Source: Escherichia phage 241Ecol014PP. From it: 64,000 bases of DNA. The notes beneath the pieces were generated by a model. It was not told the DNA's origin, searched no databases, and saw only the letters and a program-made list of their open reading frames with translations. Both the position numbers and the translations under genes were made by a program. Positions 7,185-16,946 of this stretch are shown one piece after another (position 1 is the stretch's first letter; the number at the start of each line of letters is the position of its first letter). The DNA lies in sequence record OR062943.1. One strand, given 5' to 3'.

Positions 7185-8116
7185 TGCATATAGTCCTCGT
7201 TGTGAAAATAGCAATCAAGTATCTCACGGCGTTCCTGCTCCAGGAGGCAGTTCCACACATCTTCTGTGTAATTGCTACGAATGAAGTTTACCATGCCGTA
7301 AAACTCTTCGTCAATACGTTTAAAGATATCATCATCCCAAATCTTCCAAGCTTTACCCCTCATTACGGCCTTCCGTGCCAAATAGTATGGAGACTTGATC
7401 TTCAGCTGCAGGTCATAAGGGTAGTAAGGCTTACGGATCATATACCCTTCGCCCCTTGTTTCTGCGGCTAATTCTTTTGCATAGCTGAACGGGATTTCAC
7501 GCACAGTGAGAGGACGTTTTGCACCAAGGTATTTGGCAATCCCATCTAAAGCTGCTTCTGGTAGCATTATTCCAGAATCATTATATCTGCAACCTATCAA
7601 ATATGCGCCATGGTCTTCTTGAACAATATGCGGATCTGAAGGGTGACAAATTTCAAACATGAATGTCATGTTTTCATTGCCCATAACCTTCTTGATAAGA
7701 TCTAAATTACCACATTGCTCTTGGATGGTTTCCTTTGCAAGGTTACAATATGGAGAATCAAGAGACCCGGTTGTTGAGAACAATAGGTCACCTTTATGAG
7801 ATGATACCACACCAAGGAATCCGTTCTTTTTCTCTACCGCAGTCACAAGCTTATTGTCAGGCAGGTTGGTGGAGTTTTCTCCCAAGTTAAACACTTTTGT
7901 GAAGGGCCATGCCACAACATTTCCTTCATTACCTACAACAATGCCTCGGCACTCCAGTAAACGAGGGGACAAATACCATAAATTGTTGTAAAATACTTTT
8001 CTAGCATATTTATAGATCTTTAACCCCAGATCTGGGTAATACCTACTGGTTACAAGACCTTTGTCAACTAGGTCGTCTGCATTAAAATACTTCATCATAC
8101 GTTCCTCATTTGTCAT
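7181..8116 (-). CDS. RNA ligase (Rnl1/Trl1-like nucleotidyltransferase)
   Basis: Motif I VEKKNGF (KxNG), motif IV EGYMIRK, motif V LKIKS; divergent from the kinase/phosphoesterase genes. Confidence 0.55.
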   Translation of the reverse strand: MTNEERMMKYFNADDLVDKGLVTSRYYPDLGLKIYKYARKVFYNNLWYLSPRLLECRGIVVGNEGNVVAWPFTKVFNLGENSTNLPDNKLVTAVEKKNGFLGVVSSHKGDLLFSTTGSLDSPYCNLAKETIQEQCGNLDLIKKVMGNENMTFMFEICHPSDPHIVQEDHGAYLIGCRYNDSGIMLPEAALDGIAKYLGAKRPLTVREIPFSYAKELAAETRGEGYMIRKPYYPYDLQLKIKSPYYLARKAVMRGKAWKIWDDDIFKRIDEEFYGMVNFIRSNYTEDVWNCLLEQERREILDCYFHNEDYMQ

Positions 8117-8159
8117 TTTGTCAGTCTATCCTGCCACACAAATAACCTAGTGTCAACAC

Positions 8160-8188
8160 TTGAAATTAACAAAACAGTTAGGTATACT
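8160..8188 (+). promoter_or_regulatory. sigma70-like promoter TTGAAA-17-TATACT
   Basis: In the 100-bp divergent region between RNA ligase (minus) and kinase (plus). Confidence 0.45.
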
Positions 8189-8216
8189 ATCGTTGAAATT
8201 AAAACGGAGGGTCACT

Positions 8217-8627
8217 ATGTCTAAAATGCTATATATCGTGCGTGGTCTACCAGGGTCTGGCAAATCAACACTGGCAAATGCGCTATCTTTAGAGGGTCTG
8301 TATCCACATTTTGAGAACGACATGTTCTGGTATGACGATGACGGCAATTACAACTGGGATGCAAGTAAAGTAACACTCGCAGCGAAATGGTGCAAAGATA
8401 ACGTAGAAGATATGATGCGTATGGGATACGACCGTATCGTGGTAAGTAATACGTTTACAAAAGAAAAACATGTGCAGGAATATGTTGACATGGCAATCAG
8501 TCATGGGTATAGTTATACCGTGATCGTGGTTGAAAACCGCCACGGTAATAAAAGCATTCATGATGTTCCAGACAAGGTTGTGGATCGTATGGAACGCCAG
8601 CTTAAAAACTGCATTAAACTTAAATGA
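8217..8627 (+). CDS. P-loop polynucleotide kinase-like protein
   Basis: Walker A GLPGSGKST near the N-terminus; ATG 8217 follows GGAGGG. The track's 8160 start would sit on the promoter. Confidence 0.55.
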   Translation: MSKMLYIVRGLPGSGKSTLANALSLEGLYPHFENDMFWYDDDGNYNWDASKVTLAAKWCKDNVEDMMRMGYDRIVVSNTFTKEKHVQEYVDMAISHGYSYTVIVVENRHGNKSIHDVPDKVVDRMERQLKNCIKLK

Positions 8628-8634
8628 GGAATGT

Positions 8635-9189
8635 ATGAAATACTTTGTAACAAGCGACACACACTTTCTCCACCAGCGGGTCATGGAGTTTGATTCATGT
8701 CAAAAACACAGATCTCAGTATGATCACAATCTTGACAGTATGAATGCGGGAATCATCGCCGAATGGAACTCTGTTGTGTCACCTGCAGACACTGTGTTCC
8801 ACTTGGGAGATATTGCGTGCACTAATGATAAGAATATCAACAACTTACTTCCAGATATTCTAAATATGTTGAACGGACATATTATTCTTGTTCGTGGCAA
8901 CCATGACACAAGGACGACTGTCAGAATTATGAAAGAGTTCGGTCATGAGGTTGTAGATTATTACGAGCTTCGCCACAACAAGAATTTGATCTGTATGAGC
9001 CATTACCAGTTTGCAAAGTGGAACAGAAAGCCTCACGGATCAGTCCAACTGTTCGGTCATGCTCACGGAACCACACAACAGTTGTTTGGCAGACAGTTTG
9101 ATGTCGGTTGGGATGTGTGGGGGAGACTCTTACCATTAGAAGAGGCATACCGTATTGCAATGAGTTTTGCTATTGACAGCGGGGAGTAA
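8635..9189 (+). CDS. calcineurin-like metallophosphoesterase
   Basis: SDTHF (D-x-H), GDIACTN (GD), GNHD (GNH[DE]), GHAHG; start placed at ATG 8635 because the D-x-H motif is N-terminal. Confidence 0.65.
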   Translation: MKYFVTSDTHFLHQRVMEFDSCQKHRSQYDHNLDSMNAGIIAEWNSVVSPADTVFHLGDIACTNDKNINNLLPDILNMLNGHIILVRGNHDTRTTVRIMKEFGHEVVDYYELRHNKNLICMSHYQFAKWNRKPHGSVQLFGHAHGTTQQLFGRQFDVGWDVWGRLLPLEEAYRIAMSFAIDSGE

Positions 9190-9236
9190 TCCCTGCTATT
9201 TTAAAGAAAATTGCCACACAAGGAGAATCAGGAGAT

Positions 9237-9587
9237 ATGAAAGATGGGGATAAGCTGCTATATCTTAAAGTCCCCCTTGAAATACTATCTATGTCAAAAG
9301 TTTTGAATGACACAACTGGGGAGGTTGTTGTTCTTGACTTGTATGACAAGATCGTATACTGCTACCTGCACAACTGGTATAAGCTTGGAGGAAGTTCACG
9401 CTTCACACCCAGCACAAGGAAAATTGCAGCAGATGTTGGAATAAAGAAAACAAAAGCAGCAGCGTGCGTTAAAACTTTAGAATGTGCGGGAGTGGTTGAA
9501 ATATCCACACAAGGGAGAGGTAAAAGATGCACATTTTCCAAAGTTTTGCCACCAGAAGAAGTTATTCGAATGTCAACAACTGGTTAG
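9237..9587 (+). CDS. small DNA-binding protein, helix-turn-helix-like (116 aa)
   Basis: RKIAADVGIKKTKAAACVKTLECAGVVEI looks like an HTH/wHTH segment; GGAGA RBS; iteron array lies 75 bp downstream. Confidence 0.35.
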   Translation: MKDGDKLLYLKVPLEILSMSKVLNDTTGEVVVLDLYDKIVYCYLHNWYKLGGSSRFTPSTRKIAADVGIKKTKAAACVKTLECAGVVEISTQGRGKRCTFSKVLPPEEVIRMSTTG

Positions 9588-9662
9588 ACCAGTAAAAACT
9601 TAAATATCTGTACTATAAGGATTCGTATGTTTTATGTTCGCTCTGGAACAGAGGTTAGTAAC

Positions 9663-9743
9663 TGTCCGTGATACGGACACTACTGTCCGTCACGCGGACA
9701 CATCTGTCCGTAATACGGACACTAACTGTCCGTGATACGGACA
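9663..9743. repeat. four tandem 17-bp palindromes TGTCCGT-N3-ACGGACA at 21-22 bp phasing
   Basis: Units at 9663-9679, 9684-9700 (one mismatch), 9705-9721, 9727-9743; perfect 7-bp arms. Confidence 0.85.
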
Positions 9744-9890
9744 CATAAAGAATATAACTAAAATAACTAAATAATAAAAAACAAAAGATCTAGTACTTAT
9801 GGTACTAAGTACATATACTTAACTTATGTAGAATATATTAGATCCTAAGTACTATGTTTTAAATTTATTACTTACTATGGGTAGTGTCGG
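9744..9890. other. AT-rich tract with GTACTTA/TAAGTAC inverted repeats
   Basis: agtacttatggtactaagtac and cctaagtactatg immediately after the iterons. Confidence 0.5.
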
Positions 9891-10235
9891 CCCTTCATTG
9901 GCACTCGCCTACGAGGGGCGAGATGCCGGGCCTCCCTGGTGCACACAATAACAGAAGTGCATACATGCAGGTCTGTTAACATGTGTGGGAGCGAAGCGAT
10001 AGCGCAGGCCAAAGTCCGAGCACTGATGTGGACCACCGACGAAAGCTTGCCAGCGCCGGAAGGAGTCGGTTGAGAGTCTCCCGCGCGAGCTTGGATGAAG
10101 TTTATGTGTGGAAACGGACAAGAAGGCCCCTAAATCGCTCCACAGCTATATAAACTATATCAGGTAAGGCAATCGCACCAGTTTGATAGAAAAGCTCGTT
10201 ACAAAGCGATACAGTGAGTTTTTCTATAACTTGAA
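9890..10235. other. GC-rich non-coding island
   Basis: Sharp GC rise versus flanks; only ORF is an implausible 70-aa antisense frame (9909-10121). Confidence 0.35.
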
Positions 10236-10247
10236 GAGGAGGCAGCT

Positions 10248-10826
10248 ATGAGTCCACGCAAAGATGACCGTGAAAAGATTGCAAAACGTTATCAGAATGA
10301 AGAACAGATGGAGAAAACTTTCAAGTGGAAGCCAGGTTTCCAGCGTAATCATTCTAACGCTCGTGATCGTAAGCATCCGGATAAGTGGTTAACACCGCCA
10401 AATGATGGCATTCAGGTTGGTGATGAGAAGGAGCTGTCACCAGGAAAAGATGGCAACTACATTCGCACTAAGGAAGCAGGTCCAAAGGATGACAGCTATC
10501 TTGTAGATAAGGTTCTTGACGGTATTGATGCAGGTGTTGACACTATGCGAAACCTTTTTCTTGGTTGGTATCGTACAGGGTTTTTCGACATCAAGGCTAT
10601 TCGTCGTGTTTGTGATATTAAAAAGTCTGCCTATGATGATGACTCTCTACATCGCACTCTGAGACAATACTCAGAGAGATACGGTCATCCAGTTATCACT
10701 CTTGACGATATTAACGAAGTGATGTATCATGCAGAGGTTGTTGCAGGTAGATTCGGTGATGCATATCTCGGTATTCTTTCTGCAAAAGATGAGGTAATGT
10801 TAAATAAAATTTACTATGAACGCTGA
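10248..10826 (+). CDS. hypothetical protein (192 aa), charged N-terminal region
   Basis: Strong RBS GAAGAGGAGG before the ATG; no recognisable motif. Confidence 0.5.
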   Translation: MSPRKDDREKIAKRYQNEEQMEKTFKWKPGFQRNHSNARDRKHPDKWLTPPNDGIQVGDEKELSPGKDGNYIRTKEAGPKDDSYLVDKVLDGIDAGVDTMRNLFLGWYRTGFFDIKAIRRVCDIKKSAYDDDSLHRTLRQYSERYGHPVITLDDINEVMYHAEVVAGRFGDAYLGILSAKDEVMLNKIYYER

Positions 10827-10836
10827 GGAGCGCTTA

Positions 10837-11025
10837 ATGAACAATCCGGTAGCAAAGAACTGTAATAAGTTCAACAAGTCTGCAATTCACACTGACAGGA
10901 AAAAGAGCTGGTCTCCTGACATTGACGAGGAGCTTGAGAGTTACTTTGAAGACCTGGTCACTAATGCAGATGAGGTTGCGATTAAAGAATACGCAGACAG
11001 GAAGGATAAGGCCGGAATCTGTTGA
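10837..11025 (+). CDS. hypothetical small protein (62 aa)
   Basis: In-frame ATG at 10837 after GAGGAG; the track's 10816 start overlaps the upstream stop. Confidence 0.3.
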   Translation: MNNPVAKNCNKFNKSAIHTDRKKSWSPDIDEELESYFEDLVTNADEVAIKEYADRKDKAGIC

Positions 11026-11051
11026 CAAAAATAGTGTTACCTGATAAGATC
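11023..11051 (+). promoter_or_regulatory. sigma70-like promoter TTGACA-17-TAAGAT
   Basis: -35 at 11023-11028, 17-bp spacer, TGa-extended -10 at 11046-11051. Confidence 0.5.
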
Positions 11052-11101
11052 TGCAATATGATGTGATACAATTTTAACTTACGAGGTCTACAGGTAATGC
11101 T

Positions 11102-11344
11102 ATGTTTAAGGTTAAGCTCGTTTTTCGTTCCATGAATGAGGATTATTTAGAAGATGAAGGTGAATTTCGTGCACTGGATGATGCAATAGATTTTGCCAAC
11201 GACTTAGCTTGTATGAATACAGGTTATGGGCTATGCTGTTGGGATGGTGGTGTTCAGATCGGTGATAGCAAGATCTTCTACTTCTACCCTGAGCCTGATA
11301 ACAAACAAATTAAGTATGTTTTATTTATTTGTGCTTTACAATGA
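11102..11344 (+). CDS. hypothetical protein (80 aa)
   Basis: ORF-track ORF downstream of the 11023 promoter. Confidence 0.35.
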   Translation: MFKVKLVFRSMNEDYLEDEGEFRALDDAIDFANDLACMNTGYGLCCWDGGVQIGDSKIFYFYPEPDNKQIKYVLFICALQ

Positions 11345-11399
11345 GGTTGTTTTCGTGTATCATGATGAATATCCAATTTAAAGATGAATTTGATGGCTT

Positions 11400-11633
11400 T
11401 ATCTCCGGATGCTTTGAAACAGGGTTCGGAGAAGACTGAGTTCCCCTTAGAGGGCTTGATAGTGCACCACACTTAAAATGGTAGGGGCAGCCAGCACATG
11501 ACGATGTGACCCCAGCCAACCTGTAACAAGGTCGAGCCGAAGCGCGGGTAATAGGCCTCTGGTAACCCACTTGTTGGGTCTTGCTGGTCCAGGACGCTGG
11601 ACAAGTCGCAGGGAATACCACCCTGCGGCGAAC
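11400..11633. other. GC-rich non-coding island with several hairpins
   Basis: Hairpins cacat-gacg-atgtg, gtccag-gacg-ctggac, cgcaggg-aatacca-ccctgcg; overlapping ORFs look spurious. Confidence 0.35.
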
Positions 11634-11662
11634 TTGACAATCAGTATTTGCTATGATAAAAT
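11634..11662 (+). promoter_or_regulatory. sigma70-like promoter TTGACA-17-TAAAAT
   Basis: Consensus -35 11634-11639, 17-bp spacer, TGa-extended -10 11657-11662. Confidence 0.55.
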
Positions 11663-11690
11663 CCACCTATCACGTGATAATGGAGGAAAC

Positions 11691-12029
11691 ATGGCGGATA
11701 CAACTAAAAAGCGTCGCCGTAGAGGCAGACCTCTGAAAGAGGAGTCCAACGCCATTCAGCTAGAGAAGAACATCCTTGATATGAAGGAATCTTTTATAGC
11801 GATGGTTCCAGAAGCTCACAAAGTTTTAAGAGAGCTGATGTTGGACCCGAAAACCAAACAAAATATTCGTCAAAGCATTGCAGAGTATGTTCTTGATAAG
11901 GCAGACCGAATGCAGGAAGAATATGATGAGATGTTTGGTGAAGAGGAAGAGGTGGTAGTAGAAGAGGCTGAAAAACCAGCACCTTTTATGCCATTTACTA
12001 CAGAAATACAGCCTGTTAGCAATAGCTAA
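11691..12029 (+). CDS. hypothetical DNA-binding-like protein (113 aa): basic N-terminus, acidic C-terminus
   Basis: MADTTKKRRRRGRPLKE then helical and acidic regions; could be a small terminase subunit or regulator, unresolved. Confidence 0.4.
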   Translation: MADTTKKRRRRGRPLKEESNAIQLEKNILDMKESFIAMVPEAHKVLRELMLDPKTKQNIRQSIAEYVLDKADRMQEEYDEMFGEEEEVVVEEAEKPAPFMPFTTEIQPVSNS

Positions 12030-12038
12030 AATATTTTC

Positions 12039-12067
12039 TTGACAAACTTTGCTTAACAGTGTAATAT
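12039..12067 (+). promoter_or_regulatory. sigma70-like promoter TTGACA-17-TAATAT ahead of the tRNA cluster
   Basis: -35 12039-12044, 17-bp spacer, -10 12062-12067. Confidence 0.5.
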
Positions 12068-12126
12068 TGTAAACATGGTCTCCCACCTTTTCTGGCGGCT
12101 AAGGTGTAAAAGAAAGCCACCCAGTG

Positions 12127-12200
12127 CCCTGTTAGCTTAGTGGATAAAGCAGCGGCCTTCTAAGCCGTTGACACTGGTTCGAGTCCAGTACGGGGTGCCA
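12127..12200 (+). tRNA. tRNA-Arg (anticodon TCT)
   Basis: Hand-folded cloverleaf: acceptor GCCCTGT/ACGGGGT, D stem GCTT/AAGC, anticodon stem GCGGC/GCCGT, loop CTTCTAA, T arm ACTGG-TTCGAGT-CCAGT, encoded CCA. Confidence 0.7.
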
Positions 12201-12330
12201 AGTTCTTTTTAATGTAGCTTACTTTAGCAGAGTAAATCTTCGGCAAGTGGCGGTAACCACTTTACCGATACCTCATAGTTAGTGGTGAGAACACTAGCTA
12301 TTTTAAAAAGAATTTAAATATTAGTATTTA

Positions 12331-12418
12331 GGTGAGTTAATTCCGTAGGGGTAGCGGGGCAGACTGTAAATCTGTTATCATTGCGATTCGGGTGGTTCGA
12401 CTCCATCACTCACCACCA
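12331..12418 (+). tRNA. tRNA-Tyr (anticodon GTA), long variable arm
   Basis: Acceptor GGTGAGT/ACTCACC, anticodon loop CTGTAAA, T arm GGTGG-TTCGACT-CCATC, CCA encoded. Confidence 0.7.
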
Positions 12419-12532
12419 AATTTATATTTTTAAATGCATAAATCATACAGATAATGGCATTGATATTTATCGTCGTTTATACTAGTCACTAACTGCTCGA
12501 AAATCAGTGTCATTATCAGTATTGTTTATAAA

Positions 12533-12623
12533 AGAGGGTAGGGAGCAATGGTGCTCAAGCGGTCTTGAAAACCGTCCCGTTGAGGATGACTCGATGATGG
12601 TTCGATTCCATTATCCTCTGCCA
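12533..12623 (+). tRNA. tRNA-Ser (anticodon TGA), long variable arm
   Basis: Acceptor AGAGGGT/ATCCTCT, anticodon stem GCGGT/ACCGT, loop CTTGAAA, T arm GATGG-TTCGATT-CCATT, CCA encoded. Confidence 0.7.
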
Positions 12624-12721
12624 TATTGTTGACCTTGTAATTAAGCGAAAGCCGGAAGCAGAACCGGATTATCAAATGTTACAGTCGTCATCGCCGACTA
12701 GCAACATGGTCAACATACTGA

Positions 12722-12818
12722 GCTAGGTAAGCCCTTTGGCAAGGGCGAGGATTTTTAATCCTGAAAATAGACGAGGTAGTCGTTGAATACATAGGTGGTT
12801 CGATTCCACCGCCTAGCA
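12722..12818 (+). tRNA. tRNA-like gene, non-canonical (about 97 nt); anticodon uncertain, possibly TTT
   Basis: Good acceptor (GCTAGGT/GCCTAGC), D arm and T arm (GGTGG-TTCGATT-CCACC), but anticodon arm has a 4-bp stem, the variable region is about 30 nt and no CCA is encoded. Confidence 0.35.
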
Positions 12819-12825
12819 CCTTTTT

Positions 12826-12901
12826 GCTGATGTAGCACAATTGGTAGTGCAATTGATTTGTAATCAATAGGTTGCAGGTTCAAGTCCTGCCATCAGCACC
12901 A
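12826..12901 (+). tRNA. tRNA-Thr (anticodon TGT)
   Basis: Acceptor GCTGATG/CATCAGC, anticodon stem ATTGA/TCAAT, loop TTTGTAA, T arm GCAGG-TTCAAGT-CCTGC, CCA encoded. Confidence 0.75.
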
Positions 12902-12902
12902 T

Positions 12903-12977
12903 GGCCCTGTAGCTGGAAGGTTCAAGCAAGCGACTCATAATCGCCAGACGGTGGTTCAATTCCACCCAGGGCCACCA
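12903..12977 (+). tRNA. tRNA-Met (anticodon CAT); initiator versus elongator not resolved
   Basis: Acceptor GGCCCTG/CAGGGCC, anticodon loop CTCATAA, T arm GGTGG-TTCAATT-CCACC, CCA encoded; D arm imperfect. Confidence 0.6.
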
Positions 12978-12988
12978 AATAATAAATA

Positions 12989-13411
12989 CTCCGCGTAGCT
13001 CAGCTTGGTAGAGATAATCAAAGATGCACAAATGCAGTCGTTGTGGGGAAGAAGATCCATGTAAATTTTATGGTCATAAAAAGACTATATGTGGGAAATG
13101 TCACAATGAGTACACCATGAATCTTGGGAGGCAGAAACGACAGTATGCTGTAGACAAGTTAGGCGGTAAATGTATCAATTGTGGGTTCGATAAATGGATT
13201 GTTTCTTTAGATATTCACCATTTAGACCCTAAAATTAAAGACTCTAAATTTGCTCAAATGAGAGGTTGGAGTCTGCAAAGAATTGATAATGAAATTAAAA
13301 ACTGTGTATTACTTTGTAGAAATTGTCATGCTGCCGTACATGCAGGACTTTTAGAACTACCATAACTTTGGGATCAGGAGGTCGAGTGTTCGAATCACTC
13401 CGTGGAGACCA
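12989..13411 (+). tRNA. tRNA gene interrupted by an HNH endonuclease ORF; anticodon not assignable
   Basis: 5' part CTCCGCG-TA-GCTCAGCTTGGTAGAG (12989-13014) and 3' part GAGTG-TTCGAAT-CACTC-CGTGGAG-A-CCA (13384-13411) have complementary acceptor strands, but about 355 bp lies between them. Confidence 0.45.
13024..13365 (+). CDS. HNH endonuclease (113 aa) inserted in a tRNA gene
   Basis: Cys-rich N-terminus, DIHHLDP...N...LLCRNCHAAVH HNH core; ATG is 4 nt after the tRNA D-arm. Confidence 0.6.
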   Translation: MHKCSRCGEEDPCKFYGHKKTICGKCHNEYTMNLGRQKRQYAVDKLGGKCINCGFDKWIVSLDIHHLDPKIKDSKFAQMRGWSLQRIDNEIKNCVLLCRNCHAAVHAGLLELP

Positions 13412-13457
13412 CTTTCAGTTATACTTTAAACATATACAAACAAAAGGAACCTTTAAA

Positions 13458-13727
13458 ATGTATACACTTAAAATTGTAGAGCGTGTAAATCCAACCCATA
13501 CCGTAGATTTTCGTGACGATTTCAATCCTCTGGCTGTAAATCTTCGAGAGTCATATCATGAACTCAGCTGCGATGCAGTGGTGGTCTTTTTTGAAGACAA
13601 CTCTGAAGGGGCGGTAGCTTGTGTTGTTGATAGTGAGCAGAAGTTTTATATTTACAGAGATGTAGATGCATACTTGATGAATGAAAATGCAGTTACTGTT
13701 AGAATCATCCACCGAGTGCCTCGATAA
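13458..13727 (+). CDS. hypothetical protein (89 aa)
   Basis: ATG 13458 after AAGGAA; the track's 13323 start lies inside the tRNA 3' half. Confidence 0.4.
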   Translation: MYTLKIVERVNPTHTVDFRDDFNPLAVNLRESYHELSCDAVVVFFEDNSEGAVACVVDSEQKFYIYRDVDAYLMNENAVTVRIIHRVPR

Positions 13728-13780
13728 GTATTAGTCTCCTTTTAGTTAGTTTCGATCTATTTAGGTTACTCAATTTTAAC

Positions 13781-13816
13781 CCGCCCCGTTAGCTGTATAG
13801 CTGCGGGGTTTTTTTC
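13781..13816 (+). terminator. intrinsic terminator
   Basis: CCCCG...CGGGG hairpin followed by TTTTTTT. Confidence 0.55.
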
Positions 13817-13833
13817 GTTTCTGGAGCCTTAAA

Positions 13834-14232
13834 ATGATTTCAGTTTTAACATGGCTGAGCAGGTATAGAGGGATCATAAAAGGTTTAGTTTTTGCAGCTG
13901 CGATAGGTACAGCTTATCTTGGGGCCGTGTATTGGTTTAACTCTAAGCTTAATGATGCCTACCAAGAAGGTGTGTCAGCAACAGAGTTAAAGTGGGAACG
14001 GATCCTTGATCAGCAACAAAAGCAGGCCGACAAAATTAAAATGGGCCACGCAGAGGAGGTTAAAAACCTTGAAAAATCCCTTTCTGACCTGCAGGATAAA
14101 TTAAATATGGCTGAGAAGGCAGGTAAAGAAAAGCAGATTATTTACCTCCAATCACCTGAGGGTAAGAAGTCAACACTCCCTGATCAGCTTATAGATATTT
14201 ATAATGAGAGTATTAATCAGGAGGGTCGATGA
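13834..14232 (+). CDS. i-spanin (Rz-like)
   Basis: N-terminal transmembrane helix (GLVFAAAIGTAYLGAVYWF) then charged coiled-coil; overlaps the next gene by ATGA. Confidence 0.6.
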   Translation: MISVLTWLSRYRGIIKGLVFAAAIGTAYLGAVYWFNSKLNDAYQEGVSATELKWERILDQQQKQADKIKMGHAEEVKNLEKSLSDLQDKLNMAEKAGKEKQIIYLQSPEGKKSTLPDQLIDIYNESINQEGR

Positions 14233-14516
14233 GAGTTGCTGCACTGTTTATTGTGTGCTTGTTATTGTGTGGGTGTGCAACCAGCGTTGAGAGAGAATAC
14301 AAGATTGACCCTCCAGATGTAGGAAGGTTGATTGTTAAACCCCCGGAAGGTGCCATGAAACCACCTGCTAAAGCTATACCTTTAAAGAAAGGTGCGCCAG
14401 ATGCGGTGAATTCTGGCATTATGAGGGATAATAATCTGTCTTGTAGCAATGATAGAGCTAAATTGATCATTTTGCAAGACTATATTAGAACACTGTTTCC
14501 AAAGGAGAGAGGTTAA
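14229..14516 (+). CDS. o-spanin (Rz1-like proline-rich outer-membrane lipoprotein)
   Basis: Signal plus lipobox (LLLCGCA) followed by Pro-rich mature region (DPPDVGRLIVKPPEGAMKPPAKAIP); separate ORF, not embedded. Confidence 0.65.
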   Translation: MRVAALFIVCLLLCGCATSVEREYKIDPPDVGRLIVKPPEGAMKPPAKAIPLKKGAPDAVNSGIMRDNNLSCSNDRAKLIILQDYIRTLFPKERG

Positions 14517-14941
14517 TGTCTAAGATTTACGGACCGTGTTCTGAAAAGCAGAAGATGATCCTAGAAAACGATGCAGATATTTTGGTAATCGGCGGTGCCG
14601 CAGGGTCTGGCAAGTCGTTCCTCTTGCAGTTGATGCCACTTAAAATTATTGATGACCCCCACAGCTCTGTGGTTATGTTCCGAAGAACAACCCCACAGTT
14701 GGAAGGTGAGGGTGGACTATGGCCTAAAGCAGTAGCTATTTATAGTGATCTGCCTGAAAACATTAAGCCAAAGTTCAGAGAGAAGGATCATAAGTTCATT
14801 TTCCCACGATTTGATCCGAGAACTGGCAAGTGGGATAGAAGCAAAAAGGGAGCTGTTGTAAAATACTGCCACATGGAGTATGTACAAGATAAGCTTAACC
14901 ATCAAGGGCTTGAGTACACCATGGTTTGCTTCGATGAGGGT
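14516..14941 (+). CDS. terL: terminase large subunit, exon 1 (ATPase domain)
   Basis: Walker A VIGGAAGSGKS; ends MVCFDEG (Walker B-like) directly before TAA and the intron. Exon boundary approximate. Confidence 0.65.
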
Positions 14942-15857
14942 TAATTTGTAGCTCTCGTAAAACCTCCCTAATTGCGGGGAAATCTTTATTATTGACACCA
15001 CCAACCTGTCATGGTAACATGATAGAGGCTTCGAAGAGAGATCGAAGGTATGGTAACAGTGTGTTAATTTAGATAATCCGCAGCGAAGCGTCCGAGAGGA
15101 TGAACGTTCAACGACTAGTCGAAAGACGTAGAATCAAGCGATTCGAAACGGGAGGGTGAATGTGTAATACTAAAAAATGTATGGATTGCCAAAGAGTTCT
15201 ACCTATTGATGATTTCTTTTTATCATCTAAGAGCAAGGATGGATACTCAGGTACATGCAAGGAATGCTATATGTACTACAGGAAGGGTGGATCTCGTAAA
15301 AACAAAAATATGGTTAAGAGAGATGACGCAGCATTGTTTATTCAAGACTTGCTGGAGAAAGGTGAACTTTTTGAATGCAAATCTTGTCATGAAAGTATGC
15401 TAGCTGATAGTTTTTACACAAAACGTGACTATGGTAAAGTATATCTGGTTACGAACAGGTGTAAGATGTGTGAAAAGTTTTATCAGATTGAGAAGAAATT
15501 TCACATAACAAAAGATGAATACTATCGTCTACTCTCAGATCAAGATCATAAGTGTGCCATTTGTAGAATATCCCTTGATGAGTATAGGACGCAAGGGTAC
15601 AGAGATTTCTTTTGTGTTGATCATGACCATAAAACTGGTGCTGTAAGAGGGTTGCTTTGTGATAAATGCAACAGAGCTTTAGGTTTCTTCCAAGAAGATG
15701 AGGAAACTATTCTTAGAGCGGCAGAGTATTTACACATTCATAAGATATAGTCTGGTCTGCATGGAGACATGCAGCTGCCTGAAAATGGCGGGGCAAGACT
15801 AGCGACCTTGCCCGAACATAAACGACACAATTCGAATGGGAGCAGATAGACTATCTG
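14942..15857 (+). mobile_element. group I intron with an HNH endonuclease ORF (boundaries approximate)
   Basis: P-like AATTGCGGGGAAA (about 14971), Q-like AATCCGCAGC (about 15075), R-like GTTCAACGACTAGTC (about 15106), S-like AGATAGACTATC (about 15845); 5' exon ends in U. Confidence 0.65.
15160..15750 (+). CDS. intron-encoded HNH endonuclease (endonuclease VII-like)
   Basis: Cys-rich zinc fingers and FCVDHDHKTGAVRGLLCDKCNRALG motif. Confidence 0.7.
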   Translation: MCNTKKCMDCQRVLPIDDFFLSSKSKDGYSGTCKECYMYYRKGGSRKNKNMVKRDDAALFIQDLLEKGELFECKSCHESMLADSFYTKRDYGKVYLVTNRCKMCEKFYQIEKKFHITKDEYYRLLSDQDHKCAICRISLDEYRTQGYRDFFCVDHDHKTGAVRGLLCDKCNRALGFFQEDEETILRAAEYLHIHKI

Positions 15858-16946
15858 ATGTCTCGTCTGCGATCTCAGTCAAAGTATCCATCAAGAATGG
15901 TTATCAGCTGTAACCCCGATTCAGAACACATGCTTGCCAAACTGGTTAGATGGTGGTTGGACGATGAAGGGTATCCAGATCCGGAGAAATGCGGTAAGAA
16001 AAGATATTTTATCCGACGCGACGGTGAATTTATCTGGGGAGACTCTAAAGAAGAGTTGATAGAGAAATACACCACGGTTAACGGACTGGGTGTGGAGATC
16101 AAGCCGAGACCGTTGTCATTCTCGTTTATAGGCGCAACAATATTCGATAATCCTGTCTGCTTAAGAGACAACCCAGAATACCTTGCTTTCCTTGAAGGTC
16201 TGCCGGAACTGGAAAAAGCTCAGCTTCTTCATGGTAACTGGTTTGCAAAGCCTGAGGGTGCAAACTATTTTCAAAGATCTTTCCTTCGTGATGCCGATAG
16301 AGTACCCCTTGGATCAGTATCTTGTAGGGCATGGGATAAGGCAGGAACCGAGAGAACTTCCGGTAATAAATTTCCTGACTTTACCGCCAGTGTTAAGGTA
16401 AGTAAAGATAGCGACGGCTTTTATTACCTGTCCGGTGATTATTGTCCTGAGAACGTGGATGACGGGAGGTATTCCACAGGTCTGGAAGGTAAGTTCTGTA
16501 AAAAGGCTGGTGAACGAGATGTGATCATCAGGAAACAGGCGCAGTTTGATGGTGACGATTGTATAATCGTATTCTCTGTGGACCCAGGTCAGGCAGGTAA
16601 GAGTGAGTTCTTAACCTCCTCCAGATCCTTACTCGCCGAAGGGTTTAGGGTTGAAGAAGACCCAATGCCTTCCAACAAATCTAAACTGACAAGATTCTCA
16701 CCTTTTGCCAATCTTGCCCAACAAGGAATGGTGAGGATTGTAAAATCCAGTTTCCATCCTGATACTCTGGAAGCATTTCTGACTGAACTTGAAAAATTCA
16801 ACGGGGAAAGATCAACATTTAACAGAAAAGACGACTGGGCCGACTGTGTAGCTTCTGCGATTAATTTCCTGGAGAAAGAGGAGGTAGCACTTCCTTGTGT
16901 GATTCCATCAATCTCATCACCTTCTATGTTCAAGCGTTTTATCTAA
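15858..16946 (+). CDS. terL: terminase large subunit, exon 2 (nuclease domain)
   Basis: Reading frame resumes after the intron; Asp-rich C-terminal region; true junction may lie a few codons upstream of 15858. Confidence 0.6.
   Translation: MSRLRSQSKYPSRMVISCNPDSEHMLAKLVRWWLDDEGYPDPEKCGKKRYFIRRDGEFIWGDSKEELIEKYTTVNGLGVEIKPRPLSFSFIGATIFDNPVCLRDNPEYLAFLEGLPELEKAQLLHGNWFAKPEGANYFQRSFLRDADRVPLGSVSCRAWDKAGTERTSGNKFPDFTASVKVSKDSDGFYYLSGDYCPENVDDGRYSTGLEGKFCKKAGERDVIIRKQAQFDGDDCIIVFSVDPGQAGKSEFLTSSRSLLAEGFRVEEDPMPSNKSKLTRFSPFANLAQQGMVRIVKSSFHPDTLEAFLTELEKFNGERSTFNRKDDWADCVASAINFLEKEEVALPCVIPSISSPSMFKRFI

What the first reader, a model, noticed from the sequence alone, without database searches (positions are those of the whole stretch)
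12989..13411. tRNA gene interrupted by an HNH endonuclease ORF
A canonical tRNA 5' portion (acceptor plus D arm) and a canonical 3' portion (T arm, acceptor, CCA) have perfectly complementary acceptor strands but are separated by about 355 bp that is almost entirely a 113-aa HNH ORF. The gap is too small for a typical ORF-bearing group I intron, so this is either a homing endonuclease that destroyed a tRNA gene or an unusual compact intervening sequence.
Basis: seen in the sequence. Interest (0 to 1): 0.6.

Follow-up and report, generated by a model that had tools for sequence, protein, structure and literature searches.

The report
Homing endonuclease gene inside phage tRNA-Pro
A small mobile HNH nuclease gene has landed inside, and broken, the proline tRNA gene of an rV5-like E. 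coli phage; it is not an intron, and it is an ordinary selfish element in an unusually clear insertion site.

Summary
Window 12989-13013 and 13367-13411 are the two ends of one tRNA-Pro(UGG) gene, separated by 353 bp that carry a 113-aa HNH ORF (13024-13365). The window comes from a Vequintavirus (rV5-like coliphage). Close relatives such as ECML-10 and pangalan carry the same tRNA-Pro uninterrupted at the same place.

It is not an intron:
- The insert replaces 7 nt of the tRNA (CGCCTGA, nt 25-31), so no excision can rebuild the gene.
- None of 20,300 simulated excision products gives a credible tRNA.
- Rfam finds no ribozyme there, yet it detects a real ORF-bearing group I intron in terL of the same window.

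The insert behaves as a mobile element:
- It occurs in only 13 phage records, always with identical junctions.
- Between HNH+ phages it differs at 0-3 of 353 nt, and all four variable sites are synonymous. Their flanks differ by 1-5.5%.
- It sits on at least three flank haplotypes, each shared with insert-free phages.

All 15 homologue loci examined lie in phage tRNA clusters, several beside tRNA-Pro(UGG).

Best reading: a free-standing homing endonuclease gene that inactivated a dispensable tRNA gene. It probably targets the intact allele, but cleavage and homing are untested. Interest is modest.

The parts
12989..13013 (+). 5' remnant of tRNA-Pro(UGG), nt 1-24: acceptor 5' strand, U8A9, D stem 5' strand, D loop and 3 of 4 nt of the D stem 3' strand
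   Evidence: Identical to nt 1-24 of the intact tRNA-Pro of ECML-10 (L002 1290-1366) and pangalan (L003 1163-1239). It shows 0 differences in 25 nt across the 11 relatives aligned.
13014..13366 (+). 353-bp insert that replaces the 7 nt CGCCTGA (tRNA nt 25-31) of the intact allele. It consists of a 10-nt leader (ATAATCAAAG), the HNH ORF and 1 nt after the stop codon.
   Evidence: Alignments with HNH-free relatives. The left junction 27-mer matches exactly in all 17 HNH+ loci fetched. The right junction 27-mer matches exactly in 14 of them; two of the other three (WM, A147) carry a known single substitution inside the pattern. Found in 13 phage records at 99.4-99.7% identity and on 18 assembly contigs.
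13024..13365 (+). 113-aa HNH (His-Me finger) endonuclease ORF with two CxxC...CxxC zinc motifs. It is the presumed free-standing homing endonuclease.
   Evidence: ORF. Pfam HNH 23.8 bits, above the 21.4 cutoff. PHROG 2255 'HNH endonuclease', E=5e-27. C4, C23, C26, C50, C53, H65, H66, C98, N100, C101, H102 and H106 are invariant in 11 homologues. The protein is 100% identical in 13 phages, and all 4 nucleotide polymorphisms are third-position synonymous.
13367..13411 (+). 3' remnant of tRNA-Pro(UGG), nt 32-76: anticodon loop, anticodon stem 3' strand, variable loop, T arm, acceptor 3' strand, discriminator and CCA
   Evidence: Identical to the intact allele. There is one substitution (13378 G>A) in one HNH+ phage, A147, and none in the HNH-free phages.
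12039..12067 (+). Sigma-70-like promoter upstream of the tRNA cluster. It is the probable source of the transcript that carries the HNH ORF (inferred).
   Evidence: TTGACA-17-TAATAT, 10 of 12 matches. The homologous site is annotated as a sigma-70 promoter in ECML-10. The scan reports no terminator-like site between it and the ORF other than arms of the tRNA-like element at 12722-12820.

Best explanation
A free-standing HNH homing endonuclease gene has inserted into the tRNA-Pro(UGG) gene of a Vequintavirus tRNA cluster. It replaces 7 nt at the junction of the D stem and anticodon stem, so the tRNA is inactivated and the intervening sequence is not an intron. The ORF has no promoter of its own in the 10-nt leader. 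It is presumably transcribed with the tRNA cluster and translated from a weak ribosome-binding site (inferred). The proposed mechanism is inferred by analogy with T4 SegB and other free-standing endonucleases. In a mixed infection the enzyme would cut the intact tRNA-Pro allele of an HNH-free relative. Recombinational repair from the HNH+ genome would then copy the ORF into the break. The carrier would be immune because its own target is split by the insert. Loss of the phage tRNA is tolerated, presumably because it is an accessory gene (inferred). Shown here: one interrupted gene, an unrestorable tRNA, no ribozyme, an intact and constrained HNH ORF, a mobility signature, and a family habit of living in tRNA clusters. 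Inferred: cleavage specificity, homing, and the route of expression.
For: (1) An intact allele exists at the same locus in relatives, and the window differs from it only by 353 nt replacing CGCCTGA.
(2) Rfam at E<=10 finds no intron or ribozyme across 11900-13700. The same type of search finds a group I intron with an ORF in terL (14932-15774, 48.6 bits, E=4e-11).
(3) ARAGORN recovers the wild-type control but no credible tRNA from 20,300 single-excision products. The best 'Pro' product has 3 of 5 anticodon-stem pairs and a broken D stem.
(4) Distribution is sporadic. The insert is in 13 phage records, whereas 99 records cover at least 80% of the locus. The IMG/VR viral contigs hold 4 exact matches to the empty-site sequence, two of them in Vequintavirus context, and none to the filled junction.
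(5) Between HNH+ phages the insert differs at 0-3 of 353 nt, while the flanks differ by 1-5.5% (binomial P down to 6e-8).
(6) HNH+ phages carry at least 3 flank haplotypes, each shared with HNH-free phages. Differences start 8 nt upstream and 2 nt downstream of the tRNA. The window's left flank, including a 126-nt segment, matches the HNH-free phage ECML-10, and its right flank is identical to the HNH-free phage pangalan.
(7) No other fixed difference separates HNH+ from HNH-free genomes across 8000-14949, so any self-immunity must come from the insertion itself.
(8) The ORF is constrained. All 4 polymorphisms are synonymous and the catalytic and zinc residues are invariant.
(9) All 15 homologue loci examined are inside phage tRNA clusters. 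Three of the closest homologue contexts have tRNA-Pro(UGG) within 140 nt.
(10) Precedents in the literature: SegB in the T4 tRNA cluster cleaves tRNA genes (PMC2330249), and free-standing endonuclease genes split nrdA and gene 60 (PMC2988022).
Against: No enzymatic or genetic data exist for this protein. Its cleavage site and even its activity are unknown. General phage recombination, rather than endonuclease-driven homing, could produce discordant flanks. The lower divergence of the insert could partly reflect purifying selection on a coding sequence. Most characterised free-standing endonucleases cut at a distance from their own gene, so the target need not be the insertion site. The ribosome-binding site is weak (GGTAGAG, 10 nt before the ATG). 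No similarity to any solved structure was found by sequence search.
Confidence: 0.8

Rival explanations
1. The 353 nt are a compact self-splicing or enzyme-spliced intron, and a functional tRNA-Pro is made after excision.
For: The halves are undecayed and the acceptor and T arm still pair in the minimum-energy fold of 12989-13411. HNH ORFs are common passengers of phage group I introns. One such intron exists 1.5 kb away in terL.
Against: Seven tRNA nucleotides, including the whole 5' strand of the anticodon stem, are absent. None of 20,300 excision products gives a credible tRNA. There is no group I or II signal at E<=10. Only 11 non-coding nucleotides are available. The insert ends in C, not the G expected at a group I 3' splice site. 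From general knowledge, E. coli has no tRNA splicing endonuclease. The lack of decay is explained by the recency of the insertion (0-3 differences in 353 nt).
Confidence: 0.02
2. The ORF is an HNH nuclease with a phage-benefiting role, such as a terminase or packaging helper or an anti-defence function. It was acquired once by illegitimate recombination, is not a homing element, and hit the tRNA by accident.
For: It lies about 1.15 kb upstream of terL, and HNH proteins that assist terminases are known in other phages (general knowledge). The ORF is under purifying selection. Identical junctions everywhere imply a single insertion event.
Against: It is absent from most Vequintaviruses, which package normally. 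The insert is discordant with its flanks. Homologues sit in tRNA clusters in unrelated phage groups, not next to terminases.
Confidence: 0.08
3. In addition to homing, the retained tRNA halves are functional at the RNA level. The acceptor stem and T arm would close around the ORF and direct RNase P and 3'-end processing. The nuclease mRNA would then be cut out of the tRNA precursor as a tRNA-framed transcript, which would tune its stability or expression.
For: The minimum-energy and centroid folds keep the 7-bp acceptor stem and the T arm (z=-2.0). Both halves are unchanged in 6 of the 7 HNH+ genomes aligned. Expression of segB and of the T5 tRNA-cluster endonucleases is reported or proposed to be shaped by tRNA processing (PMC2330249). 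Homologous ORFs often end inside the downstream tRNA.
Against: The insertion is too recent for conservation of the halves to mean anything. A z-score of -2 is weak. There is no covariation data. Ribosomes on the ORF would compete with a 400-nt long-range helix. Nothing requires this step.
Confidence: 0.1

Closest known systems
Phage T4 SegB (free-standing GIY-YIG homing endonuclease in the T4 tRNA gene cluster; PMC2330249)
   Same: A free-standing endonuclease gene embedded in a phage tRNA cluster and absent from close relatives. Its target lies within tRNA genes, and its expression is tied to tRNA precursor processing.
   Different: It belongs to a different nuclease family (GIY-YIG rather than HNH). 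segB lies between tRNA genes, not inside one. SegB activity and homing are demonstrated experimentally, whereas here they are inferred.
Phage T5 F-TflI/II/IV (HNH site-specific endonucleases in the T5 tRNA region; Akulenko et al. 2004, as cited in PMC2330249 and PMC5714182)
   Same: HNH endonuclease ORFs interspersed among the tRNA genes of a coliphage. A Tequintavirus ORF (Kenya-K36 K36_052, between tRNA-Gly and tRNA-Ile) is a detectable homologue (34% identity, E=1e-7).
   Different: The two HNH ORFs in the T5 st0 tRNA cluster (T5p059, T5p062) show no BLASTP similarity to the window protein. Membership in the same sequence family as the characterised enzymes is therefore not established. The T5 ORFs lie between tRNAs or overlap their ends and do not split one.
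Gene-splitting free-standing HNH endonucleases: mobE in nrdA of Aeromonas phage Aeh1 and mobA in T4 gene 60 (PMC2988022)
   Same: A free-standing HNH endonuclease gene inserted within a host gene with no intron and no splicing.
   Different: Those split protein-coding genes, and the two polypeptides reassemble into an active enzyme. A tRNA lacking one strand of its anticodon stem cannot be rescued that way, so here the host gene is lost.
ORF-bearing group I introns of phages and bacterial tRNA genes (Rfam RF00028), for example the terL intron in this same window at 14932-15774
   Same: An HNH-type ORF interrupts a conserved gene, with presence/absence polymorphism among relatives.
   Different: The tRNA insert has no ribozyme core, no restorable exons and only 11 non-coding nucleotides.

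Membership tests
HNH / His-Me finger endonuclease | Match to the HNH profile above the curated threshold | tested here: met
   Pfam PF01844, 23.8 bits against a cutoff of 21.4, E=4.9e-5. PHROG 2255 'HNH endonuclease', E=5.1e-27.
HNH / His-Me finger endonuclease | Catalytic His...Asn...His residues and zinc-binding cysteines intact | tested here: met
   H65, H66, N100, H102, H106 and C4, C23, C26, C50, C53, C98, C101 are invariant across 11 homologues at 34-71% identity.
Free-standing homing endonuclease gene | Presence/absence polymorphism at one locus among otherwise collinear close relatives | tested here: met
   13 phage records carry the insert, whereas many relatives have the intact tRNA-Pro. 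The junctions are identical.
Free-standing homing endonuclease gene | Element history discordant with its flanks (lateral spread) | tested here: met
   The insert differs at 0-3 of 353 nt while flanks differ by 1-5.5% (P down to 6e-8). There are at least 3 flank haplotypes shared with HNH-free phages.
Free-standing homing endonuclease gene | Site-specific cleavage of the element-free allele | not testable with these tools
   This needs purified protein and an empty-site substrate. The only indirect evidence is that no fixed difference other than the insert separates HNH+ from HNH-free genomes.
Free-standing homing endonuclease gene | Biased (super-Mendelian) inheritance in mixed infection | not testable with these tools
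   This requires phage crosses, for example navn x pangalan on E. coli MG1655.
Group I intron | Conserved catalytic core (P3-P9) detectable by covariance model | tested here: not met
   No RF00028 hit at E<=10 in 11900-13700. The positive control in terL scores 48.6 bits, E=4e-11.
Group I intron (or any tRNA intron, including the archaeal bulge-helix-bulge type) | Excision and ligation restore a functional tRNA | tested here: not met
   tRNA nt 25-31 are missing. None of 20,300 excision products gives a credible tRNA, while the wild-type control is detected.
Functional tRNA gene | Contiguous cloverleaf recognised by tRNA detectors | tested here: not met
   ARAGORN and the Rfam tRNA model report nothing at 12989-13411.
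T5 F-Tfl tRNA-cluster HNH endonucleases | Sequence similarity to the T5 tRNA-cluster HNH ORFs | tested here: not met
   BLASTP against T5p059 and T5p062 gives E=22 and E=1.0. Which T5 ORF is F-TflIV could not be determined, so that comparison is open.
T5 F-Tfl tRNA-cluster HNH endonucleases | Location inside a phage tRNA gene cluster | tested here: met
   The window ORF and 15 of 15 homologue loci examined lie among tRNA genes.

The most novel reading that the evidence does not exclude
The two tRNA halves are not just debris. By pairing around the ORF (acceptor stem plus T arm) they would make the nuclease mRNA a substrate for RNase P and tRNA 3'-end processing. That would create a tRNA-framed mRNA whose release from the tRNA precursor sets the level or timing of the homing endonuclease. 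It would extend to an extreme case the recurrent habit of this family of ending its ORF inside a tRNA.
Probability: 0.1. Interest if true: 0.55.

Novelty: new member of a known kind. Interest (0 to 1): 0.3.

Why it matters
This locus gives a clean natural before-and-after pair. Filled and empty alleles are available in cultured coliphages from the same collection, for example navn and pangalan. The pair concerns a free-standing HNH homing endonuclease whose insertion site lies inside a 77-bp RNA gene, which makes target mapping and homing crosses simple.

It also shows that phage accessory tRNA genes can be sacrificed to selfish elements. This matters for annotation: the ORF is labelled 'hypothetical protein' and the broken tRNA is unannotated in GenBank. 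It also matters for arguments that phage tRNA sets are tuned to codon usage. Finally, it adds a zinc-finger HNH clade (PHROG 2255) to the endonuclease families that colonise tRNA clusters. It does not reveal a new mechanism.

Tried and rejected
- **Intron hypothesis.** Rfam with permissive filters found nothing. An exhaustive excision scan with ARAGORN gave only oversized or mis-paired artefacts. Inspecting the insert by eye found no sequence that could replace the missing CCUGA strand.
- **Similarity to solved structures.** A sequence search returned only a spurious zinc-ribbon match to ribosomal protein L31, E=0.15.
- **Link to the characterised T5 enzymes.** The two HNH ORFs in the T5 st0 tRNA cluster are not similar to this protein.
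- **Search for the donor context.** The exact protein occurs only in the same Vequintavirus context on 18 contigs. The IMG/VR viral contigs have no copy of the filled junction.
- **Shared recognition site.** An alignment of tRNA-Pro genes next to homologues in other phages showed only generic tRNA-Pro conservation.
- **Literature.** Searches for a homing endonuclease inside a phage tRNA gene found no description.
- **End-to-end pairing of the insert.** GGUAG at 13007-13011 pairs with CUACC at 13357-13361 in the minimum-energy fold. I treated this as chance because no covariation data exist.

Full report
**Observation**

The window is part of a Vequintavirus (rV5-like E. coli myophage). A megablast of 12000-14500 hits hundreds of phage records, and the best are Vequintavirus genomes at 95-98.5% identity. 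The region is a tRNA cluster downstream of a sigma-70-like promoter at 12039-12067. The same site is annotated as a promoter in phage ECML-10.
- ARAGORN calls tRNA-Arg, Ser, Thr, Met and an odd 99-nt tRNA-like element.
- Rfam adds tRNA-Tyr.
- Immediately after tRNA-Met, 12989-13013 reads as tRNA nt 1-24 and 13367-13411 as tRNA nt 32-76 with anticodon UGG and an encoded CCA.
- Between them lies a 113-aa ATG-initiated ORF at 13024-13365. It matches Pfam HNH above threshold and PHROG 2255 'HNH endonuclease' at E=5e-27.

**One gene, interrupted**

Coverage classes (95%, 86%, 81%) pointed to indels.
- Fetching ECML-10 and pangalan showed an annotated, ARAGORN-confirmed 77-nt tRNA-Pro(UGG) exactly where the window has its two halves.
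- Phage navn has the same ORF as the window, annotated only as 'hypothetical protein'.
- The alignment gives the intact allele as ...GGTAGAG|CGCCTGA|TTTGGGATCAGG... and the window as ...GGTAGAG|353 nt|TTTGGGATCAGG....

The insert therefore replaces seven nucleotides: C25, G26 and the whole 5' strand of the anticodon stem.

**Not an intron**

- The missing nucleotides mean that no excision can regenerate the tRNA. I built all 20,300 products obtained by joining any position in 13000-13139 to any position in 13240-13384. ARAGORN recovered the wild-type control but otherwise gave only oversized or mis-paired calls. The best 'tRNA-Pro' has three of five anticodon-stem pairs and a broken D stem.
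- Rfam with permissive filters (E<=10) reports no group I, group II or other ribozyme between 11900 and 13700.
- The same type of search detects a bona fide ORF-bearing group I intron in the terminase gene of this window (14932-15774, 48.6 bits, E=4e-11). Such an element would therefore have been seen.
- Only 11 nt of the insert are non-coding.

**A mobile element**

- The insert DNA occurs in 13 phage records, all Vequintaviruses, at 99.4-99.7% identity. The protein is 100% identical in all of them. The exact protein is on 18 assembly contigs, always in this context.
- The left junction 27-mer matches exactly in all 17 HNH+ loci fetched. The right junction 27-mer matches exactly in 14 of them. 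Two of the other three (WM, A147) carry a single substitution inside the pattern. This indicates a single founding insertion.
- I aligned window 8000-14950 with six HNH+ and five HNH-free relatives. Between HNH+ phages the insert differs at 0-3 of 353 positions, while about 1.6 kb of adjacent flank differs by 1-5.5% (binomial P down to 6e-8).
- The HNH+ genomes fall into at least three flanking haplotypes, each shared with HNH-free phages. The differences begin 8 nt upstream of the tRNA (12981) and 2 nt downstream (13413).
- The window's left flank, including a 126-nt segment that every other HNH+ phage lacks, matches HNH-free ECML-10 (4 differences in 989 nt). Its right flank is identical to HNH-free pangalan (0 in 588 nt).
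- This pattern fits an element copied between backbones with short conversion tracts.
- All four polymorphisms inside the ORF are synonymous third-position changes. The two CxxC...CxxC motifs and the H-N-H residues are invariant in homologues down to 34% identity. The protein is therefore under selection.
- No other fixed difference separates HNH+ from HNH-free genomes anywhere in 8000-14949. If the enzyme spares its own genome, the protection must come from the insertion itself. This points to a target overlapping the insertion site, though that is an inference.

**Family habit**

- The nearest relatives of the protein are in Phapecoctavirus DIJ07P2 (71% identity, 74 nt downstream of tRNA-Pro UGG) and Salmonella phage Arash (73%). 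In Arash the ORF's last codons and stop codon are the acceptor strand and U8-A9-G10 of an intact tRNA-Pro UGG.
- Further relatives are in the jumbo phages SE_PL and 7t3 (65%, 8 nt upstream of tRNA-Asn in SE_PL) and Yersinia phage fHe-Yen9-03 (56%, just after a pseudo-tRNA(TGG), tRNA-Pro and tRNA-Val).
- More distant relatives occur in Certrevirus CR3, Pseudomonas PAK_P4, Felixounaviruses, T5-like phages and five IMG/VR contigs.
- All 15 loci inspected lie inside tRNA clusters, and the ORF often runs into the 5' end of the next tRNA.

The literature provides the functional precedent.
- T4 SegB sits in the tRNA cluster, cleaves within tRNA genes and homes in crosses with T2L (PMC2330249).
- That paper also cites the T5 HNH enzymes F-TflI/II/IV as residents of the tRNA cluster.
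- Free-standing endonuclease genes that split host genes without an intron are known: mobE in nrdA and mobA in gene 60 (PMC2988022).
- The two HNH ORFs of the T5 st0 tRNA cluster are not similar to the window protein. The resemblance to the T5 enzymes is therefore one of lifestyle, not demonstrated family membership.
- I found no paper describing a homing endonuclease inside a phage tRNA gene.

**Mechanism and alternatives**

The best-supported account is a free-standing HNH homing endonuclease gene that entered a dispensable tRNA-Pro gene, plausibly at or near its own cleavage site with loss of 7 nt during repair, and destroyed it.
- The ORF is presumably transcribed from the tRNA-cluster promoter and weakly translated.
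- It presumably spreads by cutting the intact allele in co-infecting relatives.
- Expression, cleavage specificity and homing are all inferred.

The alternatives considered are as follows.
- A spliced intron is contradicted by the sequence.
- A non-mobile HNH with a phage-benefiting role is made unlikely by its sporadic distribution and discordant flanks.
- The retained halves might have an RNA-processing role. The minimum-energy fold keeps the acceptor stem and T arm (z=-2.0), but the insertion is too young for conservation to be informative.

**Verdict**

The finding is real and correctly read as a tRNA gene destroyed by an endonuclease gene. It is a new example of a known kind of selfish element in an unusually tidy setting, and it offers good material for a simple homing experiment. 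It is not a new mechanism.

Noticed in passing
window 14516-16946: The large terminase gene is split into 14516-14944 and 15858-16946 by about 0.9 kb that carries a 196-aa endonuclease VII/HNH-like ORF (15160-15750). Rfam Intron_gpI matches 14932-15774 at 48.6 bits (gathering score 50), E=4e-11. Pangalan and NHEP1 have a contiguous terL. ECML-10 has an ORF annotated 'HNH endonuclease' at the corresponding place.
   Followed up: partly
window 12205-12330: A 126-nt segment between tRNA-Arg and tRNA-Tyr is present in the window, ECML-10, JEP1, Aya and NHEP1. It is absent from navn, pangalan, C9, YP-6, WM, A13b and A147. It folds into an 11-bp closing stem with three hairpins (z=-3.4) and has no Rfam or ARAGORN match. 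It may be a small stable RNA like those annotated in the T5 tRNA cluster.
   Followed up: partly
window 12722-12820: A 99-nt tRNA-like element that ARAGORN calls 'tRNA-???' (Rfam tRNA 31 bits, annotated 'tRNA-OTHER' in some records). It has normal acceptor, D and T arms, an aberrant anticodon arm (AGGA/UUUUUAA/UCCU, or a 6-bp stem with a 3-nt loop) and a 29-nt extra arm. ARAGORN finds it in all five Vequintavirus loci scanned for it. Its function is unknown.
   Followed up: no
window 12331-12415: A tRNA-Tyr(GUA) is detected by Rfam (39 bits) but missed by ARAGORN in the window, although ARAGORN calls it in the relatives.
   Followed up: no
GenBank MG065644-MG065690 (e.g. L022-L024): Ten records labelled 'UNVERIFIED: Campylobacter phage' are Vequintaviruses nearly identical to coliphages, so the host label looks wrong. 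They make up 10 of the 13 phage records that carry the insert.
   Followed up: no
L006 586-924; L032 701-1111; L044 7401-7982 and 9026-9610 (minus strand): HNH ORFs in tRNA clusters repeatedly end inside the next tRNA. In Arash the stop codon is U8-A9-G10 of tRNA-Pro. In PAK_P4 the ORF overlaps tRNA-Lys by 39 nt. T5p059 and T5p062 overlap tRNA-Gln and tRNA-Ser by 23 and 14 nt. tRNA 5' processing would then remove the stop codon, as discussed for segB.
   Followed up: partly
L017 1300-1330; L014 1293-1322: About 25 nt upstream of a 165-aa homologue (60% identity, with an extra N-terminal helix-turn-helix-like region) lies a hairpin followed by a T-run, CTCTATCTTTTAGCTCAATGATAGAG. Its loop reads like a tRNA D arm. 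It could be a terminator or a relic of a tRNA 5' half.
   Followed up: no
L030 104-177: Yersinia phage fHe-Yen9-03 has an annotated pseudo-tRNA(TGG) directly before an intact tRNA-Pro and close to the HNH homologue. This may be another trace of endonuclease activity on tRNA-Pro genes.
   Followed up: no
window 13378 (phage A147, L024): The only substitution in either tRNA remnant among the seven HNH+ genomes is G>A at the base of the former anticodon stem. The five HNH-free genomes show none.
   Followed up: no
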